Part shown: positions 9,392-25,902 of the stretch, piece by piece
How positions within the stretch are numbered: the first letter of the stretch is position 1
Layout of the letters: every line of letters starts with the position of its first letter
From: a virus
Taxonomy: Duplodnaviria > Caudoviricetes
Virus record (IMG/VR): IMGVR_UViG_3300032232_001064
Location: 1 to 64,000 of that record
Direction: 5' to 3' (one strand)
Length of the DNA: 64,000 nucleotides
Program-made: the position numbers and the translations under genes
Notes under the pieces: model-generated
Database searches by the model: none
Told to the model about the DNA's origin: nothing
The model's input: the letters and a program-made list of their open reading frames with translations, nothing else

Positions 9392-10639
9392 TTACTTAGT
9401 TTCAAAGTACGTTTTACGCACGAAGGATCGACTGAATCCTTTGTCCGTTTCAAGCAGGTACTCGCGATCGCCGATCAACTGTCCTTGTGGCCCGTTGGGT
9501 TGGCCGTCAAGTGCGGCAACAGTTGCCTCGCCGATCCACGTAGCGGCCTGCACAGCAACGGCCTTACCCCATGTCGCGCCGAGGGCGGAGTAGTTCTTTG
9601 CCTCGACAAATGACCAATCGTCAGGAAGTCCTTGAATTCTTGCAGCCTCACGATGCGTGATGCGGCGTGGTAGCGTCGGATGGACGATATGGTCCATGGC
9701 TCCACCGGTTAGCACGTGACAGAATGAATCAGCATCCCAGCGAACAGCTGTCGAGAATCCAAGATAGAAATCCTTTCTACGAACTTTCTCTTCTTGACTA
9801 AGCCATGACTGCGGGAACTTGTCGCCGTTCTTTTCGACAGCTTGCTTAAGCGCGCCGGCAAGATCGACCATCGGACCCCACCCGTCATTGCCGATGATCT
9901 CAAAGATCTCGTCAATTCGTCTGGTGTCCATGCTGATCTTGTTCATGTGGCCGTCGACGATACCCGTTTTAGTCCGAAGGCCGGCAACAAATGGACTAGG
10001 CTCTGACTGGCCATAGCTTTGCGGCTCCCACTGGACTTCGAGGTTCTCGAGGTCGCCGATGATGTCTCTCATTCGAGGAATCTCGGTGGGATTCGTCACT
10101 GATGCGCCAAACGGCATTCCTTGCTCGACAGCTACCCAAAAATAGCGCATCCGGTATGAGAATCCACCGACCTGCAGGTTGTTGTGCTTTACGTGGTACA
10201 GGTCATACTTCTTACCTGACAGTTCTTCAAGCATGTTGCGATATTGAAGCATCACGGCGCGACCTTGCGTATACGCCTGCTGCACACACTCGAACACTAC
10301 GATCTTTGGCTTTACGCGAGCTGCGTAGCGCATGAATGCGCGCGTGTGCTCGTGCGCAGCCGAGTCAGGTCCGCGCTTATCAGCGCCTGACCACACAGAC
10401 CAGCCAGAACATGGTGGACATCCGATGACAGCGTCTACGTTTGCTGTGGGCCAGTCGTTCGGATCGTCACCAAACGCGGCACTCCAGTTGTCGCCCAGAT
10501 GATGTCTGTTCAACTCGGCGACAGGGTTGCCAAAGTTCAATGTCCCAGTGCGGAGCTGCATCTCCATGCCGGACTTGACAAAGCCAAGACTCATGAACGC
10601 AGCTAGTCCATTGCAGTCGATAAATGTGTGATCGCTCAT
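9392..10639 (-). CDS. DNA cytosine-C5 methyltransferase homolog with degenerate SAM-binding motifs
   Basis: Motif IV GCPPCSG, VI FECVQ, VIII SYRMRYFW, IX ITHREAARIQGLPDDW and X WGKAV present; motif I is DCNGLAAF rather than DxFxGxGG. Start moved to ATG 10639 (GGAG upstream; aligns with MTase N-terminus). Confidence 0.85.
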   Translation of the reverse strand: MSDHTFIDCNGLAAFMSLGFVKSGMEMQLRTGTLNFGNPVAELNRHHLGDNWSAAFGDDPNDWPTANVDAVIGCPPCSGWSVWSGADKRGPDSAAHEHTRAFMRYAARVKPKIVVFECVQQAYTQGRAVMLQYRNMLEELSGKKYDLYHVKHNNLQVGGFSYRMRYFWVAVEQGMPFGASVTNPTEIPRMRDIIGDLENLEVQWEPQSYGQSEPSPFVAGLRTKTGIVDGHMNKISMDTRRIDEIFEIIGNDGWGPMVDLAGALKQAVEKNGDKFPQSWLSQEEKVRRKDFYLGFSTAVRWDADSFCHVLTGGAMDHIVHPTLPRRITHREAARIQGLPDDWSFVEAKNYSALGATWGKAVAVQAATWIGEATVAALDGQPNGPQGQLIGDREYLLETDKGFSRSFVRKTYFETK

Positions 10640-10671
10640 TGCGTGCTCCGTATGCGGACGATGATACTTAC

Positions 10672-10680
10672 AACCTATCA
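10672..10680 (-). promoter_or_regulatory. Extended -10 promoter candidate (TGATAGGTT)
   Basis: TGnTAnnnT in the gap upstream of the MTase homolog. Confidence 0.35.
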
Positions 10681-10697
10681 TGGCCCGGGGGAGAACA

Positions 10698-11009
10698 TTA
10701 CATGAGCAGGCTGTTTTCCTTGATACCGACCTCGTAGCCGCACGCGGCGTATCCCGCAATGTCTGTCCAAGTGTCTGGCTGGAATCCAGCGCCCGCGGCG
10801 TATCTAGCCATCTTCACTCCGACCATCGCCATCGCAACATCTTCACGTGAAAACTTGCGATCGAATAGCACTGTCCAGATCCTGGCGATCTTTTCGAAGT
10901 TGTCCTCTGGCCCGCCGTACTGCTCATCACGTTGGCCAGAGATGATACGTGCAACTTCGAGTAGCATTTCCTCACGCGCACTTTTCTTGCTGACGGCTGG
11001 CTTTGTCAT
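10698..11009 (-). CDS. DUF6378-like all-alpha (NTP-pyrophosphatase-like) protein
   Basis: 'R.EQYG.PEDNF..IA..W...DVAM.M..VKMAR...DTW.DIAGYAA' pattern. Confidence 0.75.
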   Translation of the reverse strand: MTKPAVSKKSAREEMLLEVARIISGQRDEQYGGPEDNFEKIARIWTVLFDRKFSREDVAMAMVGVKMARYAAGAGFQPDTWTDIAGYAACGYEVGIKENSLLM

Positions 11010-11227
11010 ACTGGCCGCACCTTTGGGTCAACCTTAATTCGTGCTACATACGAGATCCTGTACATCGGCGGATCGTATTTTGAAGATTCGCGTGTGAGGT
11101 GCATTTCAGCGTCAGTTGGCAGCATCGCGGTTTCATCATCTACGATTACGCGCCACTCTTCAACGAGAGCCTTGATCGCTTCGTCCATAGTCGCGCCCGT
11201 TTCTTCGATTGTCACCGTGACTCTCAT
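11006..11227 (-). CDS. Hypothetical protein (73 aa)
   Basis: 4-nt overlaps with both neighbours. Confidence 0.6.
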   Translation of the reverse strand: MRVTVTIEETGATMDEAIKALVEEWRVIVDDETAMLPTDAEMHLTRESSKYDPPMYRISYVARIKVDPKVRPV

Positions 11228-11442
11228 GATCCGCTTTCCTCTTCGTATTCCGCTAGATCTTTGAACATGGCGCTGTCCCCAAATCCAAGGCGCCGGTAGT
11301 CAAGGCCGCCGTCGACAAACACCCGTGTCTGCGAATCTGGCGGGCAACTGCACGTGACGAAATCGTGAACATGCTTGGATTCGATCGTTGTGTTGCAGTG
11401 AGCACAGTGAACTGCGTTGCGCTTTAGACGGCGACTACTCAT
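11224..11442 (-). CDS. Small Cys/His-rich zinc-binding protein (DUF7695-like)
   Basis: 'CAHCNTTIESKHVHDFVTCSC...VDGG.DY.R' pattern. Confidence 0.7.
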   Translation of the reverse strand: MSSRRLKRNAVHCAHCNTTIESKHVHDFVTCSCPPDSQTRVFVDGGLDYRRLGFGDSAMFKDLAEYEEESGS

Positions 11443-11684
11443 AGTTCTGCTACTTTCTTTTCAAGCCGGTACGGAGCATGTCGCGCACCGGATACGTAGG
11501 GAAGTCTTAGGTCAATTGTCGTGACGTGTACATCGCCGTCTTTTACGTCGATCACTCGGACAAGCCGCCCGTTGTGTATCTTTCCGGCCGCGGTTTTATA
11601 AGCATCGAACTTTACGCGGAGAACGTCACCGGTTTTAAGGTCACTGGCCGAAACATCAGCCCACAAGGAGTTCACAGCGCTCAT
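11439..11684 (-). CDS. Hypothetical SH3/Tudor-like small protein
   Basis: 'LKTGDVLRV...GRLVRVIDVKDGDVHV'; start at ATGA overlap with the upstream gene. Confidence 0.55.
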   Translation of the reverse strand: MSAVNSLWADVSASDLKTGDVLRVKFDAYKTAAGKIHNGRLVRVIDVKDGDVHVTTIDLRLPYVSGARHAPYRLEKKVAEL

Positions 11685-12154
11685 CGCTGAGGACACTGCA
11701 CTTCAGTGCACGCTGACGTGTCATAGTCGTCGAGAGCCCGAGCGCACTGTGCGCACTTCATTCCTGTATCAAGAACTCGGTATCCCTTTTTCTGTCGATC
11801 AGCGTTGAGCTGCATCTTGTTCAAGTATGCGAGGTCAAGTTCGTCGTCTGTTGCGCCAGCTGCGCACAGAATGTTCGCGACAAAGTGCAGAACATCGACG
11901 CATTCTTTGAGGATTTCACGACGATCGGCGTACGGGTCGTCGTGCTGCCACGGCTTCCAAGAAATTGCCTTACGCACCTCGGCAAGTTCGTCGTCAATGG
12001 CAAGCATGTTCCAACGAATATACTCGATGAGTGCGCGAAGATTTTCTGGTTCGTCGCTGTGAAAGACTGTGTAATCGACTCCGTAGGCTGTTTGCTGCAA
12101 CTTTCGCGTAGCGTCTAGCCACTTGTGAAACAGGTAGTTGTTTGTCTCGCTCAA
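11681..12154 (-). CDS. Dimeric dUTPase/dCTPase-like (MazG superfamily) pyrophosphatase with C-terminal Cys cluster
   Basis: 'DELAE.....WKPW.....EILKECVDVLHF.AN' motif; 'N..RQ..GY' end; C-terminal CxxC..C..C. Confidence 0.8.
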   Translation of the reverse strand: MSETNNYLFHKWLDATRKLQQTAYGVDYTVFHSDEPENLRALIEYIRWNMLAIDDELAEVRKAISWKPWQHDDPYADRREILKECVDVLHFVANILCAAGATDDELDLAYLNKMQLNADRQKKGYRVLDTGMKCAQCARALDDYDTSACTEVQCPQR

Positions 12155-13161
12155 AACCCTAGCTCCTTGATCAATGCTTCGACAGAGTCATCGACCTTAG
12201 GCGTCGATGATAGAAAATCTTTTCGTTGCGCCATGGCGATCTCGAACCTGTCGATCTGTGACATGTCCTCGATGGTTGACGGTAAGCACGTCCATGATTC
12301 GCCAAGCCAGCTCGCCGACCGCCAGTCGGTCGCTACGACAGTGCCGGTGTTTACAGCTTGGATCATGCGAGGATTCCACCATAAAAGCCCTCCGTCGCTC
12401 GGAGCAATCATAACACCAGAGCACGTCAAAAGCCGTGCCTCAATGGCGTCATCAATCTCACCTTTGTGTTCTTTGGCCGGCATCCAATTCCAAGTGAGCC
12501 CGTGTTTCACAGTCTCGAACCACTTTGACTTCGGCGTGTCGACGCACCAGAATGGACTTCTACCTCCTGGCAAAAAGCCACCGCCGACCTTGACTAACGC
12601 GGCGTCGACGTTGATAGCAACCACGGACGACGGGTCAGCATCAATACGTCTAGCGACATCAGTGTTGCTTACGCCAACAGACGCCGGAAAGATTGTTCGC
12701 GGCGTCCAACCAGTAAGCATTCGCGCGGCTGTCCAGTCGAGTCGCGCGCGTAGCTCGGTATCATCGAGAACGGCGCCATAGCCCTTTCTAGCGCGGTAGA
12801 GAGGCTTGACAAGATTGTCTGGCACACGATTTATCGCGCGAAAACTGGCCGGGATTTTGTCTGGGTCCGGTGCGTCAATCAGTAGCCGCAACTTCTCGCT
12901 ATAGAAAAGAGAGTCTATTACGCTAAGTGCACCGTAGGCGTTGTTTGCACTAAGACTCAGGACTGGCGATACTCCAACAATGACAGAGTCGTACTCGTCG
13001 AATTCCGTAGCGTCTTTTGCAATCCACGGTTCACGATGATCGACTTCAATGTCTGCTTTTTGAAGTAACTTGGCGACAGCACCAGAGAATGTAGCATTCC
13101 TCTTTGCCAAACGTGCAGATGTCTGAGGAGCTGCCATTCCGGTGATAAGAACTTTTTTCAT
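12151..13161 (-). CDS. GT-B glycosyltransferase-like protein resembling T4 beta-glucosyltransferase
   Basis: N-terminal 'KVLITGM', 'EFDEYDSVIV', 'LLIDAP', C-terminal 'WWNPRMIQAVNTGTVVATD', read by eye as parallel to T4 BGT motifs. Confidence 0.6.
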   Translation of the reverse strand: MKKVLITGMAAPQTSARLAKRNATFSGAVAKLLQKADIEVDHREPWIAKDATEFDEYDSVIVGVSPVLSLSANNAYGALSVIDSLFYSEKLRLLIDAPDPDKIPASFRAINRVPDNLVKPLYRARKGYGAVLDDTELRARLDWTAARMLTGWTPRTIFPASVGVSNTDVARRIDADPSSVVAINVDAALVKVGGGFLPGGRSPFWCVDTPKSKWFETVKHGLTWNWMPAKEHKGEIDDAIEARLLTCSGVMIAPSDGGLLWWNPRMIQAVNTGTVVATDWRSASWLGESWTCLPSTIEDMSQIDRFEIAMAQRKDFLSSTPKVDDSVEALIKELGF

Positions 13162-13901
13162 TACGCGTTGTCATTCTGTTGTTGGATATAGACAGACGGG
13201 ATTCCTACATCAAATGCCTCAACGTCAAACAGTGACGTGTCGACGCTCATGATTTGGTCAAGGTGCGGACCGATCTTAATTTCTGCACCGTCATTTGTGA
13301 TGTGACTATTCAGAAACGCGCGAGAAAGCACACTCGAGGCGACCTCAGTGTCGAATACGAGTGGTCCGCACCAGACTACAGATTCGCGAGTGAGTGGCCA
13401 GACATCTTCTTGGTTGATTTCAACGCCTTCAACGTATGAGTACAGTCCGCTAGGACGCAGCCTGACTCTCGTGAACCTAGCTGCCTTGTCAAGCTCGACA
13501 TACCTGATCCCGACGGCGTCACAGTCCGTTCTTCTTACAGTGTCGGCCATTTCTACAATGGTGTCGGTATTCATGATGTTGTCGCTCATCAAAAGCATCG
13601 TCTTTTTCGAAAGAACTTGTTCAATCCCGAGCATCGCTGCATGGCCAGGGCCAAATGGATGCTCTTGAACTATGGTCGAAACCCAGGGACCGTATTCTGC
13701 AGTGATCTGCTCAATGTCGTCGGCGTTGCTCGGCGAAACAACAATGGTCACATGGTCTACTTGCGCGGCGTCAGCGTATTGAATTGCGTATTTCAGTAGC
13801 GGAATGCCGTTCAATTCAAGAAGTGGCTTAAAGAATGGCTTTGCTAGTCCTTCCATCCGTTGACCACGACCTGCCGCAAGTATTACTGCTTCCAATGCCA
13901 T
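13161..13901 (-). CDS. Sugar-phosphate nucleotidyltransferase (NTP_transferase)
   Basis: 'VILAAGRGQRM...KPLLELNGIPLL', 'QEHP.GPGHA', 'MSDN' motifs. Confidence 0.85.
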   Translation of the reverse strand: MALEAVILAAGRGQRMEGLAKPFFKPLLELNGIPLLKYAIQYADAAQVDHVTIVVSPSNADDIEQITAEYGPWVSTIVQEHPFGPGHAAMLGIEQVLSKKTMLLMSDNIMNTDTIVEMADTVRRTDCDAVGIRYVELDKAARFTRVRLRPSGLYSYVEGVEINQEDVWPLTRESVVWCGPLVFDTEVASSVLSRAFLNSHITNDGAEIKIGPHLDQIMSVDTSLFDVEAFDVGIPSVYIQQQNDNA

Positions 13902-14401
13902 TCCTGCTTTGCCCAGATAAAGTCCCAGCCTGCAAGCATTGCAGGCCTGTGACCCTCGATCCTGTCGTCGACGTACGTTCCAGTGTCGCTGATGTTTTGC
14001 ATGATCATGAGCCGGTCGTCTGTCGAGATGCTCGACGCGAGTAGCGCATGGTGGTCTAATCCCAGTTCCGACAGGATGGTCTTAGCGACCTCCTGGGTTG
14101 CACCAGTCACATAAAAGACCTGAGTGTCGTTGCGCTGTTCGAGCGCGGCCATGATCTGCGCGAAAGGAAGAGCATTTCGCTTGACTGCGCCGCTCTTCAG
14201 TACCTTTACGTACTCGCGTGTCTTTGTCGCATGGAGTTGCTCAGCGAGTTCATACGAGCCAACCGCACCTGGCAGCCACGTGTTCCACGGATGACCCCAA
14301 GCTTCGAGCGGCATGTCAACGCCGATGTGCTTGTACGATTCGCGCACAAGTTCACGTGAGTCAATGAGAACGCCGTCAATGTCTGAACACCAATACTTCA
14401 T
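13883..14401 (-). CDS. HAD-superfamily phosphatase
   Basis: Motif I 'DIDGVL', motif II 'VTG', motif IV 'YVDD'. Confidence 0.85.
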   Translation of the reverse strand: MKYWCSDIDGVLIDSRELVRESYKHIGVDMPLEAWGHPWNTWLPGAVGSYELAEQLHATKTREYVKVLKSGAVKRNALPFAQIMAALEQRNDTQVFYVTGATQEVAKTILSELGLDHHALLASSISTDDRLMIMQNISDTGTYVDDRIEGHRPAMLAGWDFIWAKQEWHWKQ

Positions 14402-14403
14402 TT

Positions 14404-15171
14404 TTATCTCCGTTCAATCGCTCTATCGAGAACAGAAAGCACAGATTTTACCGAGTTCGGCATGTTCTGAATGACGTATGGAAGAGCACGAACCACGTGG
14501 ATAGTCGCCCACGCTTCGCCGACTGCGAAAAGCTCATCATCGGCTATCGCCTTTTTGAGATCTCGCCTTGTAAAGGCTGAAAAACCGGTTGCGTACTTGG
14601 CGTGCTCCCAACCGCACGCGCTTTGCAGCATTTTTCCGATGTCGACAGCCGGTGAATCCGGGACTACCTCAGTTGCTTGGATTGGATCAATGAGAACTTT
14701 ACCAAAGCCTGGTCTGTACATCACGTTTTCAGCTGTCGGATCGCCGTGCGTCAATGCGTGGTGCATCTCAAATGCGCCGGCGGCTGCTGTCTCTGCGTCA
14801 CTCAGTATCTGACTTTTTGTTGTGTCTGAAATTATACCACTTAGCCACGTATCTATCGTGATCTGCATCTTCTCGAGAAGTAGACCAAGAGTCGACTGTG
14901 TAGGTGGTGCGACCGGAGGTTGAATCCAAACGTAGCTACGAAGCATCTCGACCATCTCGCTCGGATCAACTTCCCAGTAGTCGATGAACTCTAGCTTTTC
15001 CATGATGTATCCATCGGAAAGAAGAGCATAGACATGGGGAAACATTGAACCGACGCTATGTATGACGATCCACTCGCCCTGCGCGCGCGTTCTTGCGCCG
15101 TCGCCGCCTTGCTTGGTGACGGTGTGTCCGTCGCCGTTATTGGTGACTACCGCGCCGGACAATCCTCTCAT
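14404..15171 (-). CDS. APH/choline-kinase-like small-molecule kinase
   Basis: Brenner motif 'HGDPTAENV', 'LIDP', 'DIGKMLQS'. Confidence 0.85.
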   Translation of the reverse strand: MRGLSGAVVTNNGDGHTVTKQGGDGARTRAQGEWIVIHSVGSMFPHVYALLSDGYIMEKLEFIDYWEVDPSEMVEMLRSYVWIQPPVAPPTQSTLGLLLEKMQITIDTWLSGIISDTTKSQILSDAETAAAGAFEMHHALTHGDPTAENVMYRPGFGKVLIDPIQATEVVPDSPAVDIGKMLQSACGWEHAKYATGFSAFTRRDLKKAIADDELFAVGEAWATIHVVRALPYVIQNMPNSVKSVLSVLDRAIERR

Positions 15172-16409: not shown

Positions 16410-16444
16410 TCCATCTCCAAAACGTCTTTATCTCTTCAGTGTGT

Positions 16445-16453
16445 AAGCTATCA
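16445..16453 (-). promoter_or_regulatory. Extended -10 promoter candidate (TGATAGCTT)
   Basis: TGnTAnnnT upstream of the AGT-like gene, downstream of a hairpin. Confidence 0.35.
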
Positions 16454-16539: not shown

Positions 16540-16555
16540 ACTGGGTGTTCTTGGC

Positions 16556-17134
16556 TCAGAACGGAGCGCTGGGCGGAGTGTCGCCTGCAGCCGCCGGCTG
16601 CTCGGCAACTGCCTCAACGACAGGTGCAGGGGCCGGTGCAGGGGCCGGTGCGGGTGCCGGTGCAGGGGCCGGTGCGGGTGCCGGTGCAGGCGCAGGAGCG
16701 GGTGCCGCTGCAGCCACAGTGCCGGCTGCCGTTGTGGCGTAGTACGCCTTGACCTCGTTCTTCTTCTGTCCCTGCCACACACGGCTGCCGACCTGTGCGC
16801 GGAACGAGCGTCCCTTGAGCGCCTGCTCGATCTGAGCGTTGGTCGGGTTGGTCGAGAAGAATTCACGACCCAGGCCGAGTGCGCCCATCTTGCGGAAGAA
16901 AATGCCGAGCGCGTTGGGGTTGTCGGTCGAGACGACCAGGTTGTCCCACACGAGGCGCTTGGCGTGCGCGCCGGTGAGGACCTGCGCCTTGATGGCGAAC
17001 ATCGTCTTGCCGGTCTGTGTCTGCTTGGCGGTTGCCTCCATGATTGTGAGGTCGTAGTCGCCGTCGGGCAGCGGATCATAGCTGCCGACGTCGCCTGCGT
17101 CCTTGATGAGGTCGCCCCAGTTGAGTGTGCTCAT
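16556..17134 (-). CDS. DUF669-like ssDNA-binding protein
   Basis: 'YDPLPDGDY.L.I..A','R.VWDNL', OB-fold-like core, (Ala-Pro)n linker, C-terminal ...DTPPSAPF tail. Confidence 0.75.
   Translation of the reverse strand: MSTLNWGDLIKDAGDVGSYDPLPDGDYDLTIMEATAKQTQTGKTMFAIKAQVLTGAHAKRLVWDNLVVSTDNPNALGIFFRKMGALGLGREFFSTNPTNAQIEQALKGRSFRAQVGSRVWQGQKKNEVKAYYATTAAGTVAAAAPAPAPAPAPAPAPAPAPAPAPAPAPAPVVEAVAEQPAAAGDTPPSAPF
16622..16706 (-). repeat. (Ala-Pro) dipeptide tandem repeat, about 14 copies
   Basis: GCN-CCN hexamer array. Confidence 0.9.
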
Positions 17135-17158
17135 TGGAATGTGTCTTTCTCTTGTTGC

Positions 17159-20681: not shown

Positions 20682-20711
20682 TCATGTCACCTCTTCTCGT
20701 TAGCGAGGATG

Positions 20712-20720
20712 ACTATACCA
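20712..20720 (-). promoter_or_regulatory. Extended -10 promoter candidate (TGGTATAGT)
   Basis: In the 87-bp AT-rich gap upstream of the helicase; gap also has an 8-bp inverted repeat atactaag/cttagtat. Confidence 0.45.
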
Positions 20721-20768
20721 CATACTAAGTCAAATGTATGACGCTTGCAAAATTTTTCTTAGTATCTT

Positions 20769-21239
20769 TTACTGAAGTAGTCTGCGAGGCGTCCAACCGT
20801 GCTTTGCCAGATACAGCAAGGCGTGGCGAATCGCGTCAAGTGCGTGTCCTTCGCCTCCACGGTGCCAGTACTCAAGCTTTTTAAGCGCTTCGTTTGGAAA
20901 CATGCGCTTTGCGTCTGCAGGTGACTGCAGCACAATGCAGTCCGGGTCGATTCCGTTGCTCAAAAGCAGATACTTCAAGATGCCGATCTGCTCAAGGCTG
21001 AACGGCGCCTGCGAATTCTTGACCGTCTGCGCGTTGATCGTGAATCGCTCGCAGACTATTTCGAGGTCGGCGCCAAGCACCATAGCGTCGGTGATCGCGC
21101 GCAAGATTGGCACGTGGTACTCGCGCATCATGTACTCACCAGAGTACAAAAGCTCAGGCTCTCCGTCTGCAAACTTAAACACGCAGATACCGCTCTTCTT
21201 GCCCGGGTCTACTGAAAGTACTAGTCTGTTCACGTCCAT
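20769..21239 (-). CDS. RuvC-like Holliday junction resolvase
   Basis: 'SVDPGKKSG', 'IVCE.F', 'HALDAIRH' RNase H-fold acidic residues. Confidence 0.8.
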   Translation of the reverse strand: MDVNRLVLSVDPGKKSGICVFKFADGEPELLYSGEYMMREYHVPILRAITDAMVLGADLEIVCERFTINAQTVKNSQAPFSLEQIGILKYLLLSNGIDPDCIVLQSPADAKRMFPNEALKKLEYWHRGGEGHALDAIRHALLYLAKHGWTPRRLLQ

Positions 21240-21556
21240 ACCACCCTAGCTACTCCAGCTCGAACGAGCATGCTCTCACACTTCTTGCATGGCTTTGACG
21301 GTGCTGGTTCGCCGTCCGCGCCAACTCTCGCAATGTAGACGTGCGCGCCGGTCGCACGCGAACCGGCAGCAATGATAGCGCCAAATTCCGCGTGGATGTG
21401 CGACACACGCCAAGCGGTGCTTGGGTCACCGACCTTCTTATTTGTCGCCATCGCGATGATACGACCGTTCTTGGCGACGACACATCCATGACGATGTCTA
21501 CACTTGCTCTTAGCTGCAAGCTGCAGCGCCTTTGTCATGTACTTACTTACCGCCAT
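21230..21556 (-). CDS. Small zinc-dependent cytidine/dCMP deaminase-like protein
   Basis: 'HAE' and 'SKPCKKC'; start placed at ATG overlapping polymerase TGA. Confidence 0.8.
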   Translation of the reverse strand: MAVSKYMTKALQLAAKSKCRHRHGCVVAKNGRIIAMATNKKVGDPSTAWRVSHIHAEFGAIIAAGSRATGAHVYIARVGADGEPAPSKPCKKCESMLVRAGVARVVWT

Positions 21557-23379
21557 CAGTATTTGTCTCCCCACGTCTCAAGCGGACCGTCGACGTCAGC
21601 AGTTAGCGGCACAGCCCAACCTTCACGCGTTGTCATGCATTCACGAACAACTTGCATGATCTCGCGGGCGTCCTTGCGCGGCGCCTGTAGCACGATTTCG
21701 TCGTGCACTGGAACGATCAGCATCTCAGTCAGATCTGCTTGGTCGAGCTTTACGAGGTTCGCCTTGAAAACCTCCGCGGCACCACCTTGAATGAGATAGT
21801 TGACAAGCGTGTACACGCGACCTTCGTCGCAAGGAAGTCGCCGACCTGTCCAAGTATAGACGTAGCCTTGGCCTTCCTCGCGAACACGACGCATCCCAAT
21901 GTCTTCAATCTGTCGCTGGAAGTACGCCATTCCAGGGAATCGACGATCAAACTCGTCTGACGTGTGCTTCATTGCGGATTCGTGGACGCCGGCGGTAAGC
22001 GCCTGTTTCGCAACGCCGGCACCGTAAAGACGGCCATAGATCATGCTCTTGATAAGGCCACGGCGCTTATCGGATTTCTGCATGTCTGGCTCGCTGTACA
22101 CTTCACGGCCGATCTCGGTGAACGGATCAGAGCCGGTGCTATCTGCGACGTTGAACAGCGAGATCAGGTTTTCGTCGTTAGAGAGACTCGCAAACATTCT
22201 GAACTCGACCTGGTCAAGGTCAGAGGTGATGATGACGTGATCGTCGTCCTTCGGAATGAAGGCACGACGAACCGTTGCGTCACCCTTTGGCAGTGTTTGA
22301 AGCGCCGGGTTCGTAATCGACATGCGACTTGTTCGAGCGCCGAGCGTCTTTACAGACGGATGCACAAAGCCGTCAACAGATTCAGTCAAGAAGTTGCTGA
22401 AGTACGTGTTCGCAAGCTTGTCAGCCTTGCGCTGCTTAAGAACAGTGTCGGCAAGTGTCTTGACTTCGTCGTTGCCGTCGCGAAGAAGAATCTTCAGCTG
22501 ATCTTTAGTGCATGACTTTTGCCCAGTCGGCGTTGTTTCCGTAATCTCTGCACCAAGGCGCTCGAAAAGCCGAACGAGCTGGACGTTGCTCGTGATCGAC
22601 ACACCTTCATACTTTTGCTTGGCCCACGTCTTTACGCTATTAGTGTATGCGCTCAGCTCATCATACTTCTGGCGTGAGTAGCCAAGGTCAACGCGTGCGC
22701 CGTTGATTTCCATGCGTGTGACGATTCGCCGCGCGGCCATTTCCAGCTCGTACGGACGGCTATACGCGCCGCTAGGGCCGCACTTGTCCCAGAACATTTC
22801 CCACAGTCTGGTCGTCAGCACGCAGTCGAGAGCGCCATATGACCAGTACGGTTGAAAGTTTGTCGGAACTGTTCCCCACGTCCAACCGTTCTTTACGAGC
22901 TCGGTATCGAGCGTCTCTTGAAGAGCCACAGCGCGACTATCGACGTGCAACGCCGCAAGACGCTTTAGCGCGCCGGAACCAAGAGGATCTACGACATGCG
23001 CCATGATCATTGTGTCATGCGCTCTATGCCACGGAATATCCCACCGAGACTGGACATCGAACCATCGCGCCTCAAAGGCGATGTTGTGGCAGATCAACGG
23101 ACCATCGAACTTGTTCATGGCCTCATAGAACACACCTGACCATTCGTCCCACGGAATCGACCAGCCCTGCTCACCGTCACCGACTTGCACAAGTCGAAGC
23201 CGGCCGTGCCATGGAGAAAACGCATGGTCTCGAGGGTTGCCGGGCAGTTCTCCGGTTTCAGTGTCGACAGCCAGCGCGTTGTGCGGCCGTCTTTGCCCAA
23301 TCCAGTGGATGAACTCCGCAGCCTTTTCGACATTGTCGACCAGATGAAGCTGGACGTTGGAAAGATCAGTCGTTGTCAT
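21556..23379 (-). CDS. polA: Family A DNA polymerase (3'-5' exonuclease + polymerase, no 5'-3' exo)
   Basis: Exo 'AVDTETG', 'HNIAFE', 'Y..LD'; motif A 'SDLDQVEFR', motif B 'RGLIKSMIYG', motif C 'VHDEI'. Start moved to ATG 23379. Confidence 0.95.
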   Translation of the reverse strand: MTTTDLSNVQLHLVDNVEKAAEFIHWIGQRRPHNALAVDTETGELPGNPRDHAFSPWHGRLRLVQVGDGEQGWSIPWDEWSGVFYEAMNKFDGPLICHNIAFEARWFDVQSRWDIPWHRAHDTMIMAHVVDPLGSGALKRLAALHVDSRAVALQETLDTELVKNGWTWGTVPTNFQPYWSYGALDCVLTTRLWEMFWDKCGPSGAYSRPYELEMAARRIVTRMEINGARVDLGYSRQKYDELSAYTNSVKTWAKQKYEGVSITSNVQLVRLFERLGAEITETTPTGQKSCTKDQLKILLRDGNDEVKTLADTVLKQRKADKLANTYFSNFLTESVDGFVHPSVKTLGARTSRMSITNPALQTLPKGDATVRRAFIPKDDDHVIITSDLDQVEFRMFASLSNDENLISLFNVADSTGSDPFTEIGREVYSEPDMQKSDKRRGLIKSMIYGRLYGAGVAKQALTAGVHESAMKHTSDEFDRRFPGMAYFQRQIEDIGMRRVREEGQGYVYTWTGRRLPCDEGRVYTLVNYLIQGGAAEVFKANLVKLDQADLTEMLIVPVHDEIVLQAPRKDAREIMQVVRECMTTREGWAVPLTADVDGPLETWGDKY

Positions 23380-23875
23380 TGTTGTCGTCCCTATCCCAGA
23401 AAATAGTGTAGTCGATGCCAGTCTCTTTGAGATACGCAAACACTAGTTCAGGTCGTCTATGAGCGTCATTCTCACTCGCGCGGCAGACGACACGGCGTAT
23501 TCCAGAGTTGCTGATGAGCTTGGCGCACTGCATGCAAGGAACGCCAGTGACGTACAACGTACCACCATCGATGCTCGATCGGTCGACATACAGCAAAGCG
23601 TTCGCCTCCGCGTGGATGGCGGGGCACAGGTCATACGTGTTGTCGAGTGTCCCCTCGCCTCTCGCTCGAGGGCACCACCCAGAACACATGCCGTCGTGAG
23701 GCCACGAAGCAGCAGGCCCGTTGTAGCCTGTTGCTGCGATCCGCTGGTTTCCTGAAACGATGACGGCGCCGATTCGGGCGCGAGAGCAGCGTGACTTTTT
23801 TGCTACGACGTCAGCTACAGCTATCCAGGTATCGTCCCACGAAGGAATGTCATCATTCGTCGTCTTCTGTGTCAT
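23366..23875 (-). CDS. dCMP deaminase (ComEB/DCD type)
   Basis: 'C.R..IGAVIV...TGYNG', 'HAEANA', 'PCMQCAK.I'. Confidence 0.9.
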   Translation of the reverse strand: MTQKTTNDDIPSWDDTWIAVADVVAKKSRCSRARIGAVIVSGNQRIAATGYNGPAASWPHDGMCSGWCPRARGEGTLDNTYDLCPAIHAEANALLYVDRSSIDGGTLYVTGVPCMQCAKLISNSGIRRVVCRASENDAHRRPELVFAYLKETGIDYTIFWDRDDNNDND

Positions 23876-24053
23876 ATTGTTCCTCGTCCGACACCTCGTT
23901 CATTCCCATGACGAGCATTCTCGCTACGAGTTCCAGGGCGTCTCTTCGTGTAAATCCGGCTCGGCGCAGTGTCACATACATCTCATGCATGCTGATTGCC
24001 GCCTCTTCCATCGGCGATGCGTACTCGTAATCGTCATCGCCGTTGTTGCTCAT
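23853..24053 (-). CDS. Hypothetical protein (66 aa)
   Basis: 'HE.Y..L..AGFTR..AL.L' small phage helical protein. Confidence 0.65.
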   Translation of the reverse strand: MSNNGDDDYEYASPMEEAAISMHEMYVTLRRAGFTRRDALELVARMLVMGMNEVSDEEQYDTEDDE

Positions 24054-24913
24054 GTCGCGTTCTTTTGACTGTTCTTATAGAACGCAGAGATCATCGAATC
24101 TGCGTACCAAGCTTCGGCATTGCCAAGAGACTCGTACGCTCTTTGCGAGTAGACAGCTGCAAGTGCGGTCTGCGCCATAGTCTTAATATTATCCCACGAT
24201 GAACCAACGATCGGTGGAGGCGGTGACACAATCTCAGTCTTTTGAAGCTGCGTCGCCGCTTCGAAATTCGTCTCGTAGATGTGAAGCGAACCGACGTGGT
24301 GAGCATACTGACCAGGCTCAATCCCGAGGACACTGGCCATTGCGATCTGCACTCGCGTGAACTGAAAGAAATCATACGCGGCGCCAAGCCACACGTCGTT
24401 CGACCGCATGTACACGCTCATGTTGAGCTTTCCATTGCGTATCCGAAACTGATGCATGACGGTGCACGGGTAGTCTCGCTTATGCGGAGTGTTGTCCTTA
24501 GACGGATCCCAAAGCGTGACGACCGCCTGCCGCGAATCAGTGTCATTTTTGAGCTTTTCGATCACAGCTTCATACTGTCCGCTGGTTCGCGTACCGTACG
24601 ACCCGTGAAACTTGCCGTCTTCTTCTGCGTAGTTCTTAAACTGCGGACCGATCGCGATCACGGTTTCCGGTACCGCAACTCCGCCGAGAAGTTGGCACGC
24701 TTCGACGGCACCAATGCCTGCGACCGGGTTGCGCTTGACGCCGACGGGCAATGTCGCAAAGACGTTGTCGATGTAGACAACCGCGTCTTCAATCTCAAGA
24801 GTGCCGAGCCCTCGAGGAGCTACTCGGTCGCCGTAGATAAGGACATGGTTGACAAGATCAACATAGCCGTTGACGCCGTCTTCGATTTCAATGGACTTTA
24901 TGGAAGCTCCCAA
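24050..24913 (-). CDS. Thymidylate-synthase-fold enzyme with Asp specificity residue (probable dCMP hydroxymethylase/methylase)
   Basis: 'DSRQAV', catalytic 'PCT', 'MRSNDVWLGAAYDFFQF', 'SLHIY'. Confidence 0.85.
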   Translation of the reverse strand: MGASIKSIEIEDGVNGYVDLVNHVLIYGDRVAPRGLGTLEIEDAVVYIDNVFATLPVGVKRNPVAGIGAVEACQLLGGVAVPETVIAIGPQFKNYAEEDGKFHGSYGTRTSGQYEAVIEKLKNDTDSRQAVVTLWDPSKDNTPHKRDYPCTVMHQFRIRNGKLNMSVYMRSNDVWLGAAYDFFQFTRVQIAMASVLGIEPGQYAHHVGSLHIYETNFEAATQLQKTEIVSPPPPIVGSSWDNIKTMAQTALAAVYSQRAYESLGNAEAWYADSMISAFYKNSQKNAT

Positions 24914-25902
24914 TGCGCAAACCTTTCACTGTGAATCTTGTCGTTGAGTGCGAAACTTTCAATCGCTAGACCGTACTCGAACTTATCTCGATGATGAAAG
25001 CGTCGTACGTATTGCGGATGAGGCAGCACGCTATAGCCGTGAGCATGCAGTCCACACGAACGAACTTCTCGCTCGGCCATCCGACCAAGAGCGACGATTT
25101 GTGGACAGCCTAGCGCACCCCACAGCTCTACGAGACGCGCGTCATGAACGTCGCCTGCATTGACAATTCCAACGCTGCGCCACAGACTTTCGGGAAGCGC
25201 GCTCAAAAGAAAGTCGCCAGAGTTTCCGTCAACTGGCATAAATGGAAGGCATGTTACCGACGGGTCATTTCGCTTGTCGCCGACAAGAAGAACTGTAGGC
25301 ATTGCAGATCCGATGTATTCAGGAAATTGAGCAAGAGGCTTCGTAAACTCTGAAACGATCGACGCCACGTGAACAATGTCGGCGGCAAGTGCGCTGAGGT
25401 TGTCTAGTCCTTCTGGTGGAACTACCTCTTGTGCGTTGAATGAACTCATTGTCGCGGCTGACTCGTATCTTGAGAGAATCCCACGAAGGTCTGACGATGA
25501 CACAAAGTCGTCACCGCGAGACGCCAACCTACTCACGATAACATCAAGCGGCTGATGAACCCAGAACTGTGCCACACCACGTGACGCAAGAAACAGCTCT
25601 ACCCAACGCCAACCTGCGACCCCGAGCAGGCCATAGCCGTCTTTGTTTGTTTCTGGCCGCTTTGTCGGCGCGTATGTAATCTCGCCCCAGTGCCACCTAT
25701 CGGCGATCGCGTCCTCGCGCCACGTGTCGAGGTTTTCAATCGAGATGGCGTACTCAGTGAGCGCCCAACGCCTCGTAAGCTCGTCAGGGCGTCCTTTATG
25801 GAACTCTAGAACCTTACTCGACGACGCGTCGAGCAGCTTCTTGATCTCAAGAGCAAGCGAGGACTTACCAGATGCGTCGGTACCCTCAAGTACAATGAAC
25901 AT
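24898..25902 (-). CDS. dNMP (thymidylate-kinase-like) kinase fused to a uracil-DNA-glycosylase-like domain
   Basis: P-loop 'EGTDASGKSS', 'DRWHWGE..Y'; C-terminal 'LVGD','PF....SG.FL','IVALG..A','HPQYVRRF'. Confidence 0.8.
   Translation of the reverse strand: MFIVLEGTDASGKSSLALEIKKLLDASSSKVLEFHKGRPDELTRRWALTEYAISIENLDTWREDAIADRWHWGEITYAPTKRPETNKDGYGLLGVAGWRWVELFLASRGVAQFWVHQPLDVIVSRLASRGDDFVSSSDLRGILSRYESAATMSSFNAQEVVPPEGLDNLSALAADIVHVASIVSEFTKPLAQFPEYIGSAMPTVLLVGDKRNDPSVTCLPFMPVDGNSGDFLLSALPESLWRSVGIVNAGDVHDARLVELWGALGCPQIVALGRMAEREVRSCGLHAHGYSVLPHPQYVRRFHHRDKFEYGLAIESFALNDKIHSERFAHWELP

What the first reader, a model, noticed from the sequence alone, without database searches (positions are those of the whole stretch)
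9392..25902. Candidate new cytosine-hypermodification system in an actinophage
Seen: one minus-strand block holds an Asp-type TS-fold enzyme (dCMP modifier), a dNMP kinase, a dCTPase/dUTPase-like pyrophosphatase, a DUF6378-like protein, two deaminases, PolA, two DNA-type GT-B enzymes (AGT-like and BGT-like), a kinase/HAD/nucleotidyltransferase trio and an atypical C5-MTase homolog. Known: T4 uses gp42 (dCMP hydroxymethylase), gp1 (kinase), gp56 (dCTPase) and AGT/BGT to make glucosyl-hmC. Inference: this phage replaces C with a 5-modified C at the nucleotide level and then adds a sugar it activates itself (not host UDP-Glc), possibly in two steps or two anomers. I do not know a characterised actinophage with this exact gene set.
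Basis: partly seen in the sequence, partly recalled or inferred. Interest (0 to 1): 0.9.

Follow-up and report, generated by a model that had tools for sequence, protein, structure and literature searches.

The report
Actinophage sugar-decorated hydroxymethylcytosine gene set
An uncultured freshwater phage of actinobacteria carries a T4-like gene kit that most likely replaces the cytosine in its DNA with 5-hydroxymethylcytosine and then hangs a self-made sugar on it; this is a new variant of a known anti-nuclease trick and has not been shown chemically.

Summary

- **TS homolog.** It carries the three-residue signature of T4-type 5-hydroxymethyl-dCMP synthases. T4 gp42, RB69 gp48 and SPO1-type enzymes sorted correctly as controls.
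- **NTPase.** The all-alpha NTPase is a gp56 (dCTPase/dUTPase) relative.
- **Glycosyltransferases.** Both unknown proteins fold as GT-B. T4 beta-glucosyltransferase is the best solved match for one. The other is GT4-like and ties with T4 alpha-glucosyltransferase.
- **Sugar genes.** An APH-type kinase, a HAD enzyme and a sugar-1-P nucleotidyltransferase lie between the two transferases. A 2023 preprint shows that such a set with a BGT-like enzyme puts heptose on 5hmC.
- **Distribution.** The kit occurs in at least 45 IMG/VR contigs, DSL-LC01, cultured Gordonia phages (GodonK, GMA2 and relatives) and Micrococcus phage Kurnik.
- **Variable and fixed parts.** The sugar cassette varies between relatives. 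A C5-methyltransferase-like gene without TET is always present, and its role is unexplained.
- **Caveat.** Two related lineages keep the BGT-like gene but lack the cytosine-replacement genes.

No chemistry exists for any of these phages. This scan has reported the same kind of kit on other DNA. Verdict: a new variant of a known kind, of moderate interest.

The parts
24898..25902 (-). dNMP kinase (P-loop, residues 1-~180) fused to a UDG-superfamily-like C-terminal domain (residues ~185-334). Predicted to phosphorylate 5hm-dCMP.
   Evidence: phrog_761 'thymidylate kinase', E 1.2e-11, over residues 1-152. GxxxxGKS P-loop. Overlaps the TS gene by 16 bases. C-terminal domain: Atlas feature score 0.93 to clusters in which 18-36% of members carry PF03167 UDG, and TM 0.65 to a UDG family cluster. 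No Pfam or PDB sequence hit.
24050..24913 (-). Thymidylate-synthase-fold enzyme with the dCMP hydroxymethylase (5hm-dCMP synthase) signature.
   Evidence: PF00303, 89 bits. Best PDB sequence hit is MilA CMP hydroxymethylase. Catalytic Cys is kept. At the E. coli ThyA positions: L143 is D, D169 is D, N177 is D, the same as T4 gp42. The RB69 gp48 control reads E/N/D and the SPO1-type controls read D/D/N. It is the only PF00303 match in the contig.
23366..23875 (-). dCMP deaminase (169 aa).
   Evidence: PF00383, 72 bits. phrog_174, E 5.5e-44. HAE and PCxxC zinc motifs.
21556..23439 (-). Family A DNA polymerase with a 3'-5' exonuclease domain.
   Evidence: PF00476, 187 bits.
21230..21574 (-). Second, small cytidine/dCMP deaminase-fold protein (114 aa). 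Present in only some relatives.
   Evidence: PF00383, 49 bits. Homolog found only in L005/L006 among the loci compared.
16556..21239 (-). Replication and recombination genes inside the block: SSB-like (16556-17134), AAA_24/Sak4-like (17159-17929), PD-(D/E)XK exonuclease (17929-18888), SNF2 helicase (18885-20681), RuvC-like (20769-21239).
   Evidence: DSL-LC01 annotation.
15168..16409 (-). GT4-type GT-B glycosyltransferase (413 aa). Candidate user of the phage-made NDP-sugar.
   Evidence: No Pfam, PHROG, NCBIfam or PDB sequence hit. AlphaFold pLDDT 91. VIA Z 24-25 to GT4 enzymes, including T4 AGT at Z 24.1 with 329 residues aligned. All copies linked to the three sugar genes form one clade.
14404..15171 (-). 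APH/ELK-fold small-molecule kinase (255 aa). Predicted sugar or sugar-phosphate kinase.
   Evidence: PF01636, E 5.7e-4, below cut-off. HGDxxxxN...ID catalytic motif. Atlas score 0.99 to viral APH clusters.
13883..14401 (-). Small HAD-superfamily phosphatase or phosphomutase (172 aa).
   Evidence: PF00702, 23 bits, below cut-off. DIDGV motif I and a DD motif IV.
13161..13901 (-). Sugar-1-phosphate nucleotidyltransferase (246 aa).
   Evidence: PF12804, 59.5 bits, and PF00483, 38.5 bits. Partial NCBIfam matches to RmlA, AglF, GlmU and HddC, all far below their cut-offs.
12151..13161 (-). BGT-like GT-B glycosyltransferase (336 aa), fast-evolving.
   Evidence: No sequence family. pLDDT 94. T4 BGT is the top solved structure: Foldseek E 5e-6, VIA Z 18.6 with 297 residues aligned, and first of 48,161 chains at Z 17.1, with the next at 16.0. 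No profile similarity to T4 BGT. Invariant D96 among 30 homologs.
11681..12154 (-). gp56-like all-alpha NTP pyrophosphatase. Predicted dCTPase/dUTPase.
   Evidence: PF08761, 45 bits against a 22.9 cut-off. phrog_18650 dUTPase. 27% identity over 136 residues to T4 gp56, pairwise E 1e-11.
10698..11696 (-). Four small genes: DUF6378 (10698-11009), 73 aa (11006-11227), DUF7695 zinc-ribbon-like (11224-11442), 85 aa (11439-11696).
   Evidence: PF19905, E 3.8e-24. PF24749, E 2e-19. DUF6378 is inherited together with the gp56-like and MTase-like genes.
9392..10639 (-). Cytosine-C5 methyltransferase-like protein with altered motifs. Role unexplained.
   Evidence: PF00145, 76 bits, but only profile positions 56-321 are matched. 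Motifs read PPCS, FECV, RxRYF and GK.V, and motif I reads NGLAA. Homologs occur in only 15 of 50,697 phage records. The four genomes among them that I inspected carry an Asp-type TS homolog, and the rest are among the best matches of that homolog.

Best explanation
The block is a T4-type cytosine replacement and decoration system in a phage of actinobacteria.

**Inferred pathway**
1. The gp56-like pyrophosphatase turns dCTP (and dUTP) into the monophosphate. This lowers the dCTP pool and feeds the next step.
2. The Asp-type TS-fold enzyme converts dCMP to 5-hydroxymethyl-dCMP, using methylene-tetrahydrofolate and water.
3. The neighbouring kinase phosphorylates that product. Host enzymes finish the triphosphate, and the phage PolA builds 5hmC into phage DNA.
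4. dCMP deaminase diverts part of the dCMP to dUMP for dTMP synthesis by the host.
5. After replication, one or both GT-B enzymes put sugar on the hydroxymethyl group.
6. The kinase, HAD enzyme and nucleotidyltransferase make the NDP-sugar donor. A kinase, phosphatase and nucleotidyltransferase route of the heptose type is the leading guess. The donor most likely serves the GT4-like enzyme. The BGT-like enzyme may use the same donor or a host UDP-sugar.

**Shown here**
- Gene content and operon-like packing.
- Signature residues of the TS homolog, with controls.
- Folds of the two GTs.
- Homology of the NTPase to gp56.
- Co-inheritance of the gene set.

**Inferred only**
- Every enzymatic activity.
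- DNA as the sugar acceptor.
- The identity of the sugar.

The C5-MTase-like protein belongs to the system by co-inheritance, but its step is unknown.
For: **TS homolog**
- It has D at the ThyA L143 position, D at D169 and D at N177, with the catalytic Cys. In the same alignment T4 gp42 (5hm-dCMP) reads D/D/D, RB69 gp48 (5-hydroxy-dCMP) reads E/N/D, and the SPO1-type and SP10 dUMP hydroxymethylases read D/D/N. The criteria are from PMC13326640.
- HMMER alignment to a canonical TS confirms the position mapping.
- GMA2 carries ThyX as well as the Asp-type homolog, as T4 carries td beside gp42.

**Other nucleotide genes**
- The kinase gene overlaps the TS gene by 16 bases.
- The NTPase aligns to T4 gp56 at E 1e-11 and is PF08761.

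**Glycosyltransferases**
- The 336-aa protein is GT-B. T4 BGT is the best of 48,161 chains, at Z 17.1, and scores Z 18.6 in the Foldseek-seeded run.
- The 413-aa protein is GT4-like GT-B, and T4 AGT scores Z 24.1.

**Sugar genes**
- Precedent: HAD/APH plus a cytidylyltransferase plus a BGT-like GT-B made mono- and di-heptosyl-5hmC in E. coli. GT-B hits in IMG/VR were associated more often with ThyS than with TET.
- Precedent for a UDP-galactopyranose mutase in a DNA-glycosylation cluster, as in DSL-LC01.

**Comparative evidence**
- Among 50,697 phage records, BGT-like homologs occur in 12 and MTase-like homologs in 15. These records coincide with the best matches of the TS homolog plus Kurnik.
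- I read the Asp-type residues directly in DSL-LC01, GodonK, GMA2 and Kurnik. Kurnik's TS is of the gp42 subtype, so the accessory genes go with two TS lineages.
- The order GT cassette, gp56-like, MTase-like, WhiB recurs in GodonK, GMA2, Kurnik and 45 IMG/VR loci, with different GT cassettes.
- TS, kinase and deaminase at one site, and gp56-like, DUF6378 and MTase-like at another 12-15 kb away, are absent together in L003 and L066.
- No marked avoidance of 4-base palindromes: observed/expected 0.74-1.19. This is only consistent with the reading.
Against: - No chemical or sequencing-signal evidence exists for this phage or any relative.
- The BGT-like protein has no sequence-profile similarity to T4 BGT (hhalign probability 2%). 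It leads the next GT-B structure by only about 1 Z unit.
- The GT4-like protein resembles lipid, teichoic-acid and small-molecule GT4 enzymes as well as it resembles T4 AGT.
- Two related lineages keep a BGT-like gene at the same syntenic place but lack the TS, kinase, deaminase, gp56-like and MTase-like genes. For L003 this holds over 50 kb. For L066 it holds over 21 kb. So this GT does not strictly need that set.
- Actinophages are known to glycosylate virion proteins (from my own knowledge, not checked here).
- A C5-methyltransferase-like enzyme has no obvious substrate if C5 is already occupied everywhere. Replacement may therefore be partial, or the scheme may differ from T4's.
- The signature residues separate hydroxymethylation from methylation only by correlation.
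- No heptose isomerase was found in the contig, which is about 50% complete.
Confidence: 0.58

Rival explanations
1. The phage replaces C with 5hmC (or 5mC), but the glycosyltransferases and the sugar-activation genes serve another target, such as virion proteins, the host envelope or a small molecule. The DNA then carries no sugar.
For: - The GT4-like model matches PimA, TarM, BshA, MshA and HepE as well as it matches T4 AGT.
- The BGT-like gene persists in L003 and L066 without the cytosine-replacement genes.
- In the 2023 preprint, about 65% of mined phage GT contigs had no base-modification enzyme nearby.
- A further GT1-family gene beside collagen-like genes (6638-7738) shows that this phage glycosylates other things too.
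Against: - The GT genes lie inside the early replication and nucleotide operon and overlap the gp56-like gene by 4 bases.
- Different GT cassettes occupy the same slot next to gp56-like and MTase-like genes in Gordonia, Micrococcus and freshwater phages.
- In cultured phages, BGT-like homologs occur only in records that also rank as the best matches of the Asp-type TS homolog.
- T4 BGT is the top structural match.
- There is an experimental precedent for the same enzyme set on 5hmC.
Confidence: 0.17
2. The C5-methyltransferase-like enzyme is a core catalytic step that acts on 5hmC (or on residual C) in DNA. It uses its Cys/Glu/Arg machinery to exchange or extend the C5 substituent, so the final base is a cytosine adduct not yet described, with or without sugar.
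For: - The gene is strictly co-inherited with the Asp-type TS set. It occurs in 15 of 50,697 phage records, and these are the records that best match the TS homolog, plus Kurnik.
- It is lost together with that set in L003 and L066.
- There is no TET partner in the contig or in four complete relatives.
- The catalytic PC, E.V and RxR motifs are conserved, while PCQ reads PCS, GN reads GK, and motif I is altered.
- The N-terminal 55 positions of the Pfam profile are unmatched.
Against: - The Gordonia and Micrococcus homologs keep a glycine-rich motif I (NGLGGG, HGFGGG), so ordinary SAM use is plausible for the family.
- No natural enzyme of this kind is known.
- A plain C5-methylase acting on residual or site-specific C would explain the sequence equally well.
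Confidence: 0.13
3. The TS-fold enzyme makes another product, or its product is rerouted. One version is 5-methyl-dCMP, giving 5mC DNA as in Xanthomonas phage XP-12. Another is deamination of 5hm-dCMP to 5hm-dUMP by the phage deaminases, so that thymine rather than cytosine is the modified base.
For: - Two deaminase-fold genes are present.
- The L143 rule for methyl versus hydroxymethyl is a correlation.
- The nearest phage homologs outside actinophages include dUMP hydroxymethylases.
Against: - D at the N177 position separates the known dCMP enzymes from the known dUMP enzymes in my alignment.
- D at the L143 position matches all the hydroxymethylating controls.
- dCMP deaminase is also part of the T4 hmC scheme and is typical of ThyS-linked clusters.
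- GT genes imply a hydroxyl acceptor.
Confidence: 0.08
4. Ordinary nucleotide metabolism. The TS homolog is a true thymidylate synthase and the rest are housekeeping auxiliary genes with no DNA modification.
For: Public records annotate the homologs as thymidylate synthase, thymidylate kinase and dUTPase.
Against: - The specificity residues are those of dCMP hydroxymethylases, not of TS.
- All NCBIfam TS equivalog models score far below their cut-offs.
- GMA2 has a separate ThyX.
Confidence: 0.03

Closest known systems
Phage T4 glucosyl-5hmC pathway (gp56 dCTPase, gp42 dCMP hydroxymethylase, gp1 dNMP kinase, Cd dCMP deaminase, alpha- and beta-glucosyltransferases)
   Same: - The same logical parts list.
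- The TS homolog shares gp42's L143D / D169 / N177D signature.
- The NTPase is a detectable gp56 homolog (E 1e-11).
- There is one BGT-like and one GT4/AGT-like GT-B enzyme.
   Different: - The TS homolog is only 29% identical to gp42 over the aligned part and belongs to another sublineage. Kurnik, by contrast, has a gp42-type enzyme.
- The kinase is dTMP-kinase-like and fused to a UDG-like domain. It is not gp1/DNMK.
- The GTs share fold only with the T4 enzymes.
- The phage makes its own NDP-sugar.
- It always carries a C5-MTase-like gene, which T4 lacks.
- The host is an actinobacterium, and the polymerase is family A.
'Contig 53' cluster of the preprint 'Virus-encoded glycosyltransferases hypermodify DNA with diverse glycans' (bioRxiv 10.1101/2023.12.21.572611)
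   Same: - HAD, APH-type kinase and nucleotidyltransferase together with a BGT-like GT-B.
- Those enzymes were shown to add one or two heptoses to 5hmC in DNA.
   Different: - There the 5hmC is made after replication by a C5-methyltransferase plus TET. Here a TS homolog makes it before replication, and no TET is present.
- HAD and APH are fused there and separate here.
- A second, GT4-like GT is present here.
RB69 / DLP3 / RL38JI glycosylated 5-hydroxycytosine systems (Lee et al., NAR 2026, PMC13326640)
   Same: - TS-fold enzyme, dNMP kinase, phage-encoded NDP-sugar synthesis and DNA glycosyltransferases.
- An NDP-sugar mutase (UDP-galactofuranose) is proposed for RL38JI, as in the relative DSL-LC01.
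   Different: - Those TS homologs carry D169N and hydroxylate C5 directly with a flavin.
- The window's enzyme keeps D169, so it should hydroxymethylate.
- The sugar genes are unrelated by BLAST to those of RB69.
Gordonia phages GodonK, Phendrix, Sixama, Forza, GMA2; Micrococcus phage Kurnik; Actinomycetia phage DSL-LC01
   Same: - They share homologs of the TS (Asp-type), kinase, deaminase, gp56-like, MTase-like and BGT-like or GT4-like genes in the same relative order.
   Different: - Their GT and sugar cassettes differ: GT-A pairs, a UDP-galactopyranose mutase, and none has the three sugar-activation genes.
- None has been analysed for DNA modification in the papers I could search.

Membership tests
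T4-type dCMP hydroxymethylase (5hm-dCMP synthase) within the thymidylate synthase fold | TS fold with a catalytic cysteine (ThyA C146) | tested here: met
   PF00303, 89 bits. The PC motif aligns to the TS catalytic Cys.
T4-type dCMP hydroxymethylase (5hm-dCMP synthase) within the thymidylate synthase fold | Asp at ThyA N177 (dCMP rather than dUMP) | tested here: met
   The motif RSNDVWLGAAYD has D at that position. The controls T4 gp42 (D) and SPO1-type and SP10 (N) behave as expected.
T4-type dCMP hydroxymethylase (5hm-dCMP synthase) within the thymidylate synthase fold | Acidic residue at ThyA L143 (water access, hydroxymethyl product) | tested here: met
   The motif RDYPC has D three residues before the Cys, as in gp42. 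The criterion is from PMC13326640.
T4-type dCMP hydroxymethylase (5hm-dCMP synthase) within the thymidylate synthase fold | Formation of 5hm-dCMP from dCMP and methylene-THF | not testable with these tools
   Needs an enzyme assay or in vivo expression followed by LC-MS.
5-hydroxy-dCMP synthase (RB69 gp48 type) | Asn at ThyA D169 | tested here: not met
   The window and all relatives keep D. The RB69 gp48 control shows N in the same alignment.
gp56-type dCTPase/dUTPase (all-alpha NTP pyrophosphatase, PF08761) | Family-level sequence match and similarity to T4 gp56 | tested here: met
   PF08761, 45.4 bits against a 22.9 cut-off. BLASTP to gp56: 27% identity over 136 residues, E 1e-11.
gp56-type dCTPase/dUTPase (all-alpha NTP pyrophosphatase, PF08761) | Hydrolysis of dCTP | not testable with these tools
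   Substrate choice (dCTP, dUTP or other) cannot be read from the sequence.
T4 beta-glucosyltransferase family (GT63) | GT-B fold most similar to BGT | tested here: met
   Z 18.6 with 297 residues aligned at rmsd 3.8. First of 48,161 chains at Z 17.1, with the next at 16.0.
T4 beta-glucosyltransferase family (GT63) | Detectable sequence homology to BGT | tested here: not met
   hhalign probability 2% for the 30-sequence profile against T4 BGT. No Pfam, PHROG or NCBIfam hit.
T4 beta-glucosyltransferase family (GT63) | Catalytic Asp equivalent to BGT D100 and transfer to 5hmC in DNA | tested here: inconclusive
   An invariant D96 follows strand 4 in all 30 homologs. No residue-level structural alignment was available, and the activity is untested.
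T4 alpha-glucosyltransferase (GT72) / GT4 retaining GT-B enzymes | GT-B fold of GT4 type | tested here: met
   Z 24-25 to many GT4 enzymes. T4 AGT scores Z 24.1 with 329-335 residues aligned.
T4 alpha-glucosyltransferase (GT72) / GT4 retaining GT-B enzymes | Specific kinship with AGT rather than with GT4 in general | tested here: inconclusive
   AGT is tied with PimA, TarM, HepE and BshA within 1 Z unit. No sequence hit.
Cytosine-C5 DNA methyltransferase (PF00145) | Catalytic motifs IV (PC), VI (E.V) and VIII (RxR) | tested here: met
   PPCS, FECV and RMRYF. PF00145, 76 bits.
Cytosine-C5 DNA methyltransferase (PF00145) | SAM-binding motif I (FxGxG) and motif X (GN.VP) | tested here: not met
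   The window reads NGLAA and GKAVAV. Profile positions 1-55 are unmatched. GodonK and Kurnik keep GGG, so the loss is specific to the freshwater clade.
Post-replicative MT + TET (5mYOX) + GT cytosine hypermodification clusters | A TET/JBP dioxygenase beside the C5-MTase | tested here: not met
   No PF12851 match in the contig or in DSL-LC01, GodonK, Kurnik or GMA2. The contig itself is only about 50% complete.
Phage NDP-heptose-type sugar activation (kinase, HAD phosphatase, nucleotidyltransferase) | All three enzyme classes adjacent to a DNA-type GT | tested here: met
   APH-type kinase, HAD and nucleotidyltransferase lie between the two GTs, abutting or overlapping each other by up to 19 bases.
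Phage NDP-heptose-type sugar activation (kinase, HAD phosphatase, nucleotidyltransferase) | Heptose as the sugar (GmhA-type isomerase, HddC/HldC-type transferase) | tested here: inconclusive
   No SIS isomerase in the contig. The HddC model matches only weakly, at 26.5 bits against a cut-off of 300, and less well than RmlA or AglF.

The most novel reading that the evidence does not exclude
The always-present C5-methyltransferase-like protein has an intact cytosine-activating Cys/Glu/Arg core, an altered cofactor pocket and no TET partner. It could be a new kind of DNA enzyme that works on 5-hydroxymethylcytosine or its glycoside, or that hydroxymethylates leftover cytosines. In that case these actinophages would carry a cytosine hypermodification not yet described, combined with a phage-made sugar attached by two different GT-B enzymes.
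Probability: 0.15. Interest if true: 0.8.

Novelty: new variant of a known kind. Interest (0 to 1): 0.5.

Why it matters
- **Defence evasion.** If the reading is right, a large and widespread group of freshwater and soil actinophages hides its cytosines under sugars, as T-even coliphages do. That bears on how restriction, type IV nucleases and CRISPR shape phage-host dynamics in Actinomycetota. It also bears on biases in sequencing and cloning of these phages.
- **Swappable cassette.** The slot between the SSB gene and the gp56-like gene holds a different sugar cassette in different relatives: GT4-like plus three sugar genes, GT4-like alone, a mutase plus a second BGT-like gene, or GT-A pairs. 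With the fast-evolving BGT-like gene, this looks like an arms-race hotspot and a source of new DNA glycosyltransferases.
- **Testability.** Sequenced, cultured phages carry the same core: Gordonia GodonK, GMA2 and Sixama, and Micrococcus Kurnik. The prediction, and the unexplained role of the C5-methyltransferase-like enzyme, can therefore be tested directly.

Tried and rejected
- **Sequence-family searches of the two GTs.** Pfam, PHROGs, NCBIfam and PDB phmmer found nothing. Only the folds were informative.
- **Profile comparison with T4 BGT.** hhalign of the BGT-like family against T4 BGT gave probability 2%.
- **Related loci for the BGT-like gene.** The search for related loci failed with the single protein and with alignment A1. 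The GT4-like alignment worked.
- **TET-based reading.** Rejected: there is no Tet_JBP in the contig or in four complete relatives.
- **5-hydroxycytosine (RB69-type) reading.** Rejected: D169 is kept.
- **True thymidylate synthase.** Rejected on the specificity residues and on GMA2's separate ThyX.
- **Looking for a TS in L003.** I walked 50 kb of the L003 contig and found none. An exact-match search for that contig in IMG/VR found nothing.
- **Literature.** Searches for hydroxymethylcytosine or hydroxymethylase in actinophages found no characterised case. One search was wasted on a surname. The DSL-LC01 and GMA2 papers do not discuss DNA hypermodification.
- **Kinase C-terminal domain.** No Pfam or PDB sequence hit. 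Only the Atlas points to a UDG-like fold.
- **RB69 sugar genes.** The three sugar genes show no BLAST similarity to the RB69 arabinose cluster.
- **The 229-aa ORF at 16390-17079.** It has no homolog in any relative and is replaced by the SSB-like ORF.

Full report
**What the window is.** The window is 64 kb of a 72.9-kb IMG/VR viral contig that is about 50% complete. It encodes WhiB. Its nearest deposited relative is Actinomycetia phage DSL-LC01 from a freshwater lake, with 76% DNA identity over part of the block. It is therefore a phage of actinobacteria.

**Checking the observation.** A chain of minus-strand ORFs runs from 9392 to 25902. From 10698 to 16409 the genes abut or overlap by 1-19 bases, apart from one 2-base gap. 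Profile searches confirm most of the listed classes:
- C5-methylase homolog
- DUF6378
- dUTPase_2/MazG
- nucleotidyltransferase
- HAD (weak match)
- APH-type kinase (weak by Pfam, corroborated by its HGDxxxxN motif and by the Atlas)
- PolA
- two deaminase-fold proteins
- a TS homolog
- a P-loop dNMP kinase

Two gene calls need correction. The methylase-like gene probably starts at M41 (10639), as in its 413-424-aa relatives. The 229-aa ORF at 16390-17079 has no homolog anywhere, and an overlapping SSB-like ORF at 16556-17134 is the real gene.

**The TS homolog.** Its best PDB sequence match is MilA, a CMP hydroxymethylase. Lee et al. (NAR 2026, PMC13326640) give three diagnostic positions in E. 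coli ThyA numbering:
- N177D selects dCMP.
- An acidic residue at L143 goes with hydroxymethyl rather than methyl products.
- D169N marks the newly found 5-hydroxy-dCMP synthases.

I aligned the window protein with enzymes of known product, taken from public phage records:

| Enzyme | L143 / D169 / N177 positions | Known product |
|---|---|---|
| T4 gp42 | D / D / D | 5hm-dCMP |
| RB69 gp48 | E / N / D | 5-hydroxy-dCMP |
| SPO1-type gp29 and SP10 | D / D / N | 5hm-dUMP |
| Window protein and all its relatives | D / D / D | predicted 5hm-dCMP |

The window protein also keeps the RS of the RSND motif, which is typical of deoxynucleotide users. It therefore carries the signature of a 5hm-dCMP synthase. 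It is the only PF00303 match in the contig and in DSL-LC01. The relative GMA2 has a separate ThyX, which parallels T4's td beside gp42.

**The rest of the nucleotide set.** The kinase gene overlaps the TS gene by 16 bases. The all-alpha pyrophosphatase is PF08761 and aligns with T4 gp56 dCTPase/dUTPase at 27% identity over 136 residues (E 1e-11). The 169-aa deaminase is a typical dCMP deaminase. Together these are the T4 logic: lower the dCTP pool, hydroxymethylate dCMP, phosphorylate it, and supply dUMP.

**The two unknown proteins.** Neither has any sequence-family match. With alignments of 30 and 37 homologs, AlphaFold gave confident models, with pLDDT 94 and 91.
- The 336-aa protein is GT-B. 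T4 beta-glucosyltransferase is its best solved match in three searches: Foldseek, VIA Z 18.6 with 297 residues aligned, and an exhaustive run over 48,161 chains at Z 17.1, with the next hit at 16.0. The lead is narrow, and there is no profile-level sequence similarity. It works like a BGT-type enzyme but is not a demonstrable GT63 member.
- The 413-aa protein is a GT4-type GT-B. T4 alpha-glucosyltransferase scores Z 24.1, within one unit of PimA, TarM, HepE and BshA.

**The sugar genes.** An APH-type kinase, a small HAD enzyme and a sugar-1-phosphate nucleotidyltransferase lie between the two GTs. A 2023 preprint (10.1101/2023.12.21.572611) reports a metagenomic cluster with a HAD/APH fusion, a cytidylyltransferase and a BGT-like GT-B. 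Expression of all three was needed to put one or two heptoses on 5hmC in E. coli. That is a direct functional precedent for this enzyme set. It also explains why a phosphatase belongs in it: kinase, phosphatase and nucleotidyltransferase is the heptose-type route. The sugar here remains unknown. No heptose isomerase is in the contig, and the transferase matches RmlA and AglF models better than HddC, all far below their cut-offs.

**Comparative evidence.** The GT4-like alignment retrieved 45 IMG/VR loci. Wherever the contigs are long enough, the whole set recurs in the same order. The slot between the SSB gene and the gp56-like gene varies:
- GT4-like, kinase, HAD, transferase, BGT-like (the window and most loci)
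- GT4-like plus BGT-like
- GT4-like alone
- another 411-aa protein plus BGT-like (L005)
- a second BGT-like paralog plus UDP-galactopyranose mutase plus BGT-like (DSL-LC01)

Among 50,697 deposited phage genomes, BGT-like homologs occur in 12 records and methylase-like homologs in 15. These records are DSL-LC01, the Gordonia phages GodonK, Phendrix, Sixama, Forza, Boopy, BlueNGold, Mareelih and GMA2, and Micrococcus phage Kurnik. They coincide with the best matches of the TS homolog. I read the Asp-type residues directly in DSL-LC01, GodonK, GMA2 and Kurnik. Kurnik's TS is of the gp42 subtype, so the accessory genes accompany two different TS lineages. GodonK, GMA2 and Kurnik all show the order GT genes, gp56-like, methylase-like, then WhiB in the first two.

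In trees, all GT4-like copies linked to the three sugar genes form one short-branched clade. BGT-like branches are about ten times longer and do not follow the three genes. So the three genes more likely serve the GT4-like enzyme, and the BGT-like gene evolves fast.

**What argues against.** Two related lineages, L003/L004 and L066, keep a BGT-like gene in the same place. They lack the TS, kinase and deaminase genes at one syntenic site and the gp56-like, DUF6378 and methylase-like genes at the other. I walked 50 kb of the L003 contig without finding a TS homolog. This joint absence shows that those six genes form one unit. It also shows that the BGT-like enzyme does not strictly depend on that unit. 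No chemical data exist for any relative in the literature I could search, and read-level evidence could not be obtained. Palindrome statistics show no marked site avoidance, which is only consistent with a globally protected genome.

**The methyltransferase-like protein.** It keeps the catalytic PC, E.V and RxR motifs, but it has PCS instead of PCQ and GK instead of GN. The first 55 profile positions are unmatched. Motif I reads NGLAA in the freshwater clade, but NGLGGG and HGFGGG in GodonK and Kurnik. No TET is present in the contig or in four complete relatives. Its strict co-inheritance with a pathway that should leave no free C5 is unexplained. It may methylate residual or site-specific cytosines, or it may act on 5hmC.

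**Verdict.** The best reading is pre-replicative 5hmC followed by glycosylation with a phage-made sugar (confidence about 0.58), but DNA as the GT acceptor and the two-anomer idea are not shown. The kind of system is known from T4, RB69, RL38JI and contig 53, and ThyS-linked GT-B contigs have been mined in bulk. This scan has also reported similar actinophage kits on other DNA. What is particular here is the actinophage setting, the obligatory methylase-like partner without TET, the swappable sugar cassette and a UDG-like domain on the kinase. I rate it a new variant of a known kind, with interest 0.5.

Noticed in passing
window 24901-25350 (-), residues ~185-334 of the dNMP kinase: The kinase carries a C-terminal domain that the ESM Atlas places with UDG-superfamily proteins: feature score 0.93, and TM 0.65 to a PF03167 cluster named after the SPO1 DNA-polymerase-related protein. 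There is no Pfam or PDB sequence hit. The domain is present in DSL-LC01 but not in the Gordonia or Micrococcus kinases.
   Followed up: partly
window 16390-17079 versus 16556-17134 (-): The longest ORF here (229 aa) has no homolog in any relative. The overlapping 192-aa ORF matches phage SSB/DUF669-type families and is the likely gene.
   Followed up: yes
L003/L004 and L066 (metagenome contigs): Two related phage lineages lack six genes at two syntenic sites 12-15 kb apart (TS, kinase and deaminase; gp56-like, DUF6378 and MTase-like). They keep the BGT-like gene next to the SSB gene. L003 has a T4 gp1-type DNMK kinase elsewhere.
   Followed up: partly
L001 (DSL-LC01) 12356-15501: DSL-LC01 has two BGT-like paralogs flanking a UDP-galactopyranose mutase, which suggests a galactofuranose-type DNA sugar. 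The published paper read the mutase as a cell-wall auxiliary gene.
   Followed up: partly
window 12151-13161 versus 15168-16409: In the same set of genomes, BGT-like proteins have median tip branches of 0.55 and GT4-like proteins 0.049. The BGT-like gene therefore evolves, or is exchanged, far faster.
   Followed up: partly
window 6638-7738 (+) and 15-1205 (+): A separate GT1-family glycosyltransferase lies near collagen-repeat proteins on the other strand. It may be a second glycosylation system aimed at virion fibres.
   Followed up: no
window 8845-9351 (-) and 7930-8409 (-): A T4 endonuclease V-type pyrimidine-dimer glycosylase and a WhiB regulator follow the modification block. This pair is conserved in the freshwater relatives.
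   Followed up: no
whole window: ATCGAT occurs 7 times against 23.9 expected (z -3.5) and is the only clearly depleted palindrome. The 4-base palindromes lie at 0.74-1.19 of expectation.
   Followed up: partly
window 51412-63789 (-): A single 4125-aa ORF lies in the structural region. Other first-stage readers noted it as a multi-enzyme head protein. I did not examine it.
   Followed up: no
window 25962-26438 (-): A 158-aa protein of unknown family lies upstream of the kinase. Homologs sit in the same place in DSL-LC01, GodonK and GMA2, and it is retained in L003, which lacks the TS set.
   Followed up: partly
L068 (GMA2 44111-44686): Gordonia phage GMA2 encodes ThyX as well as the Asp-type TS homolog.
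   Followed up: yes
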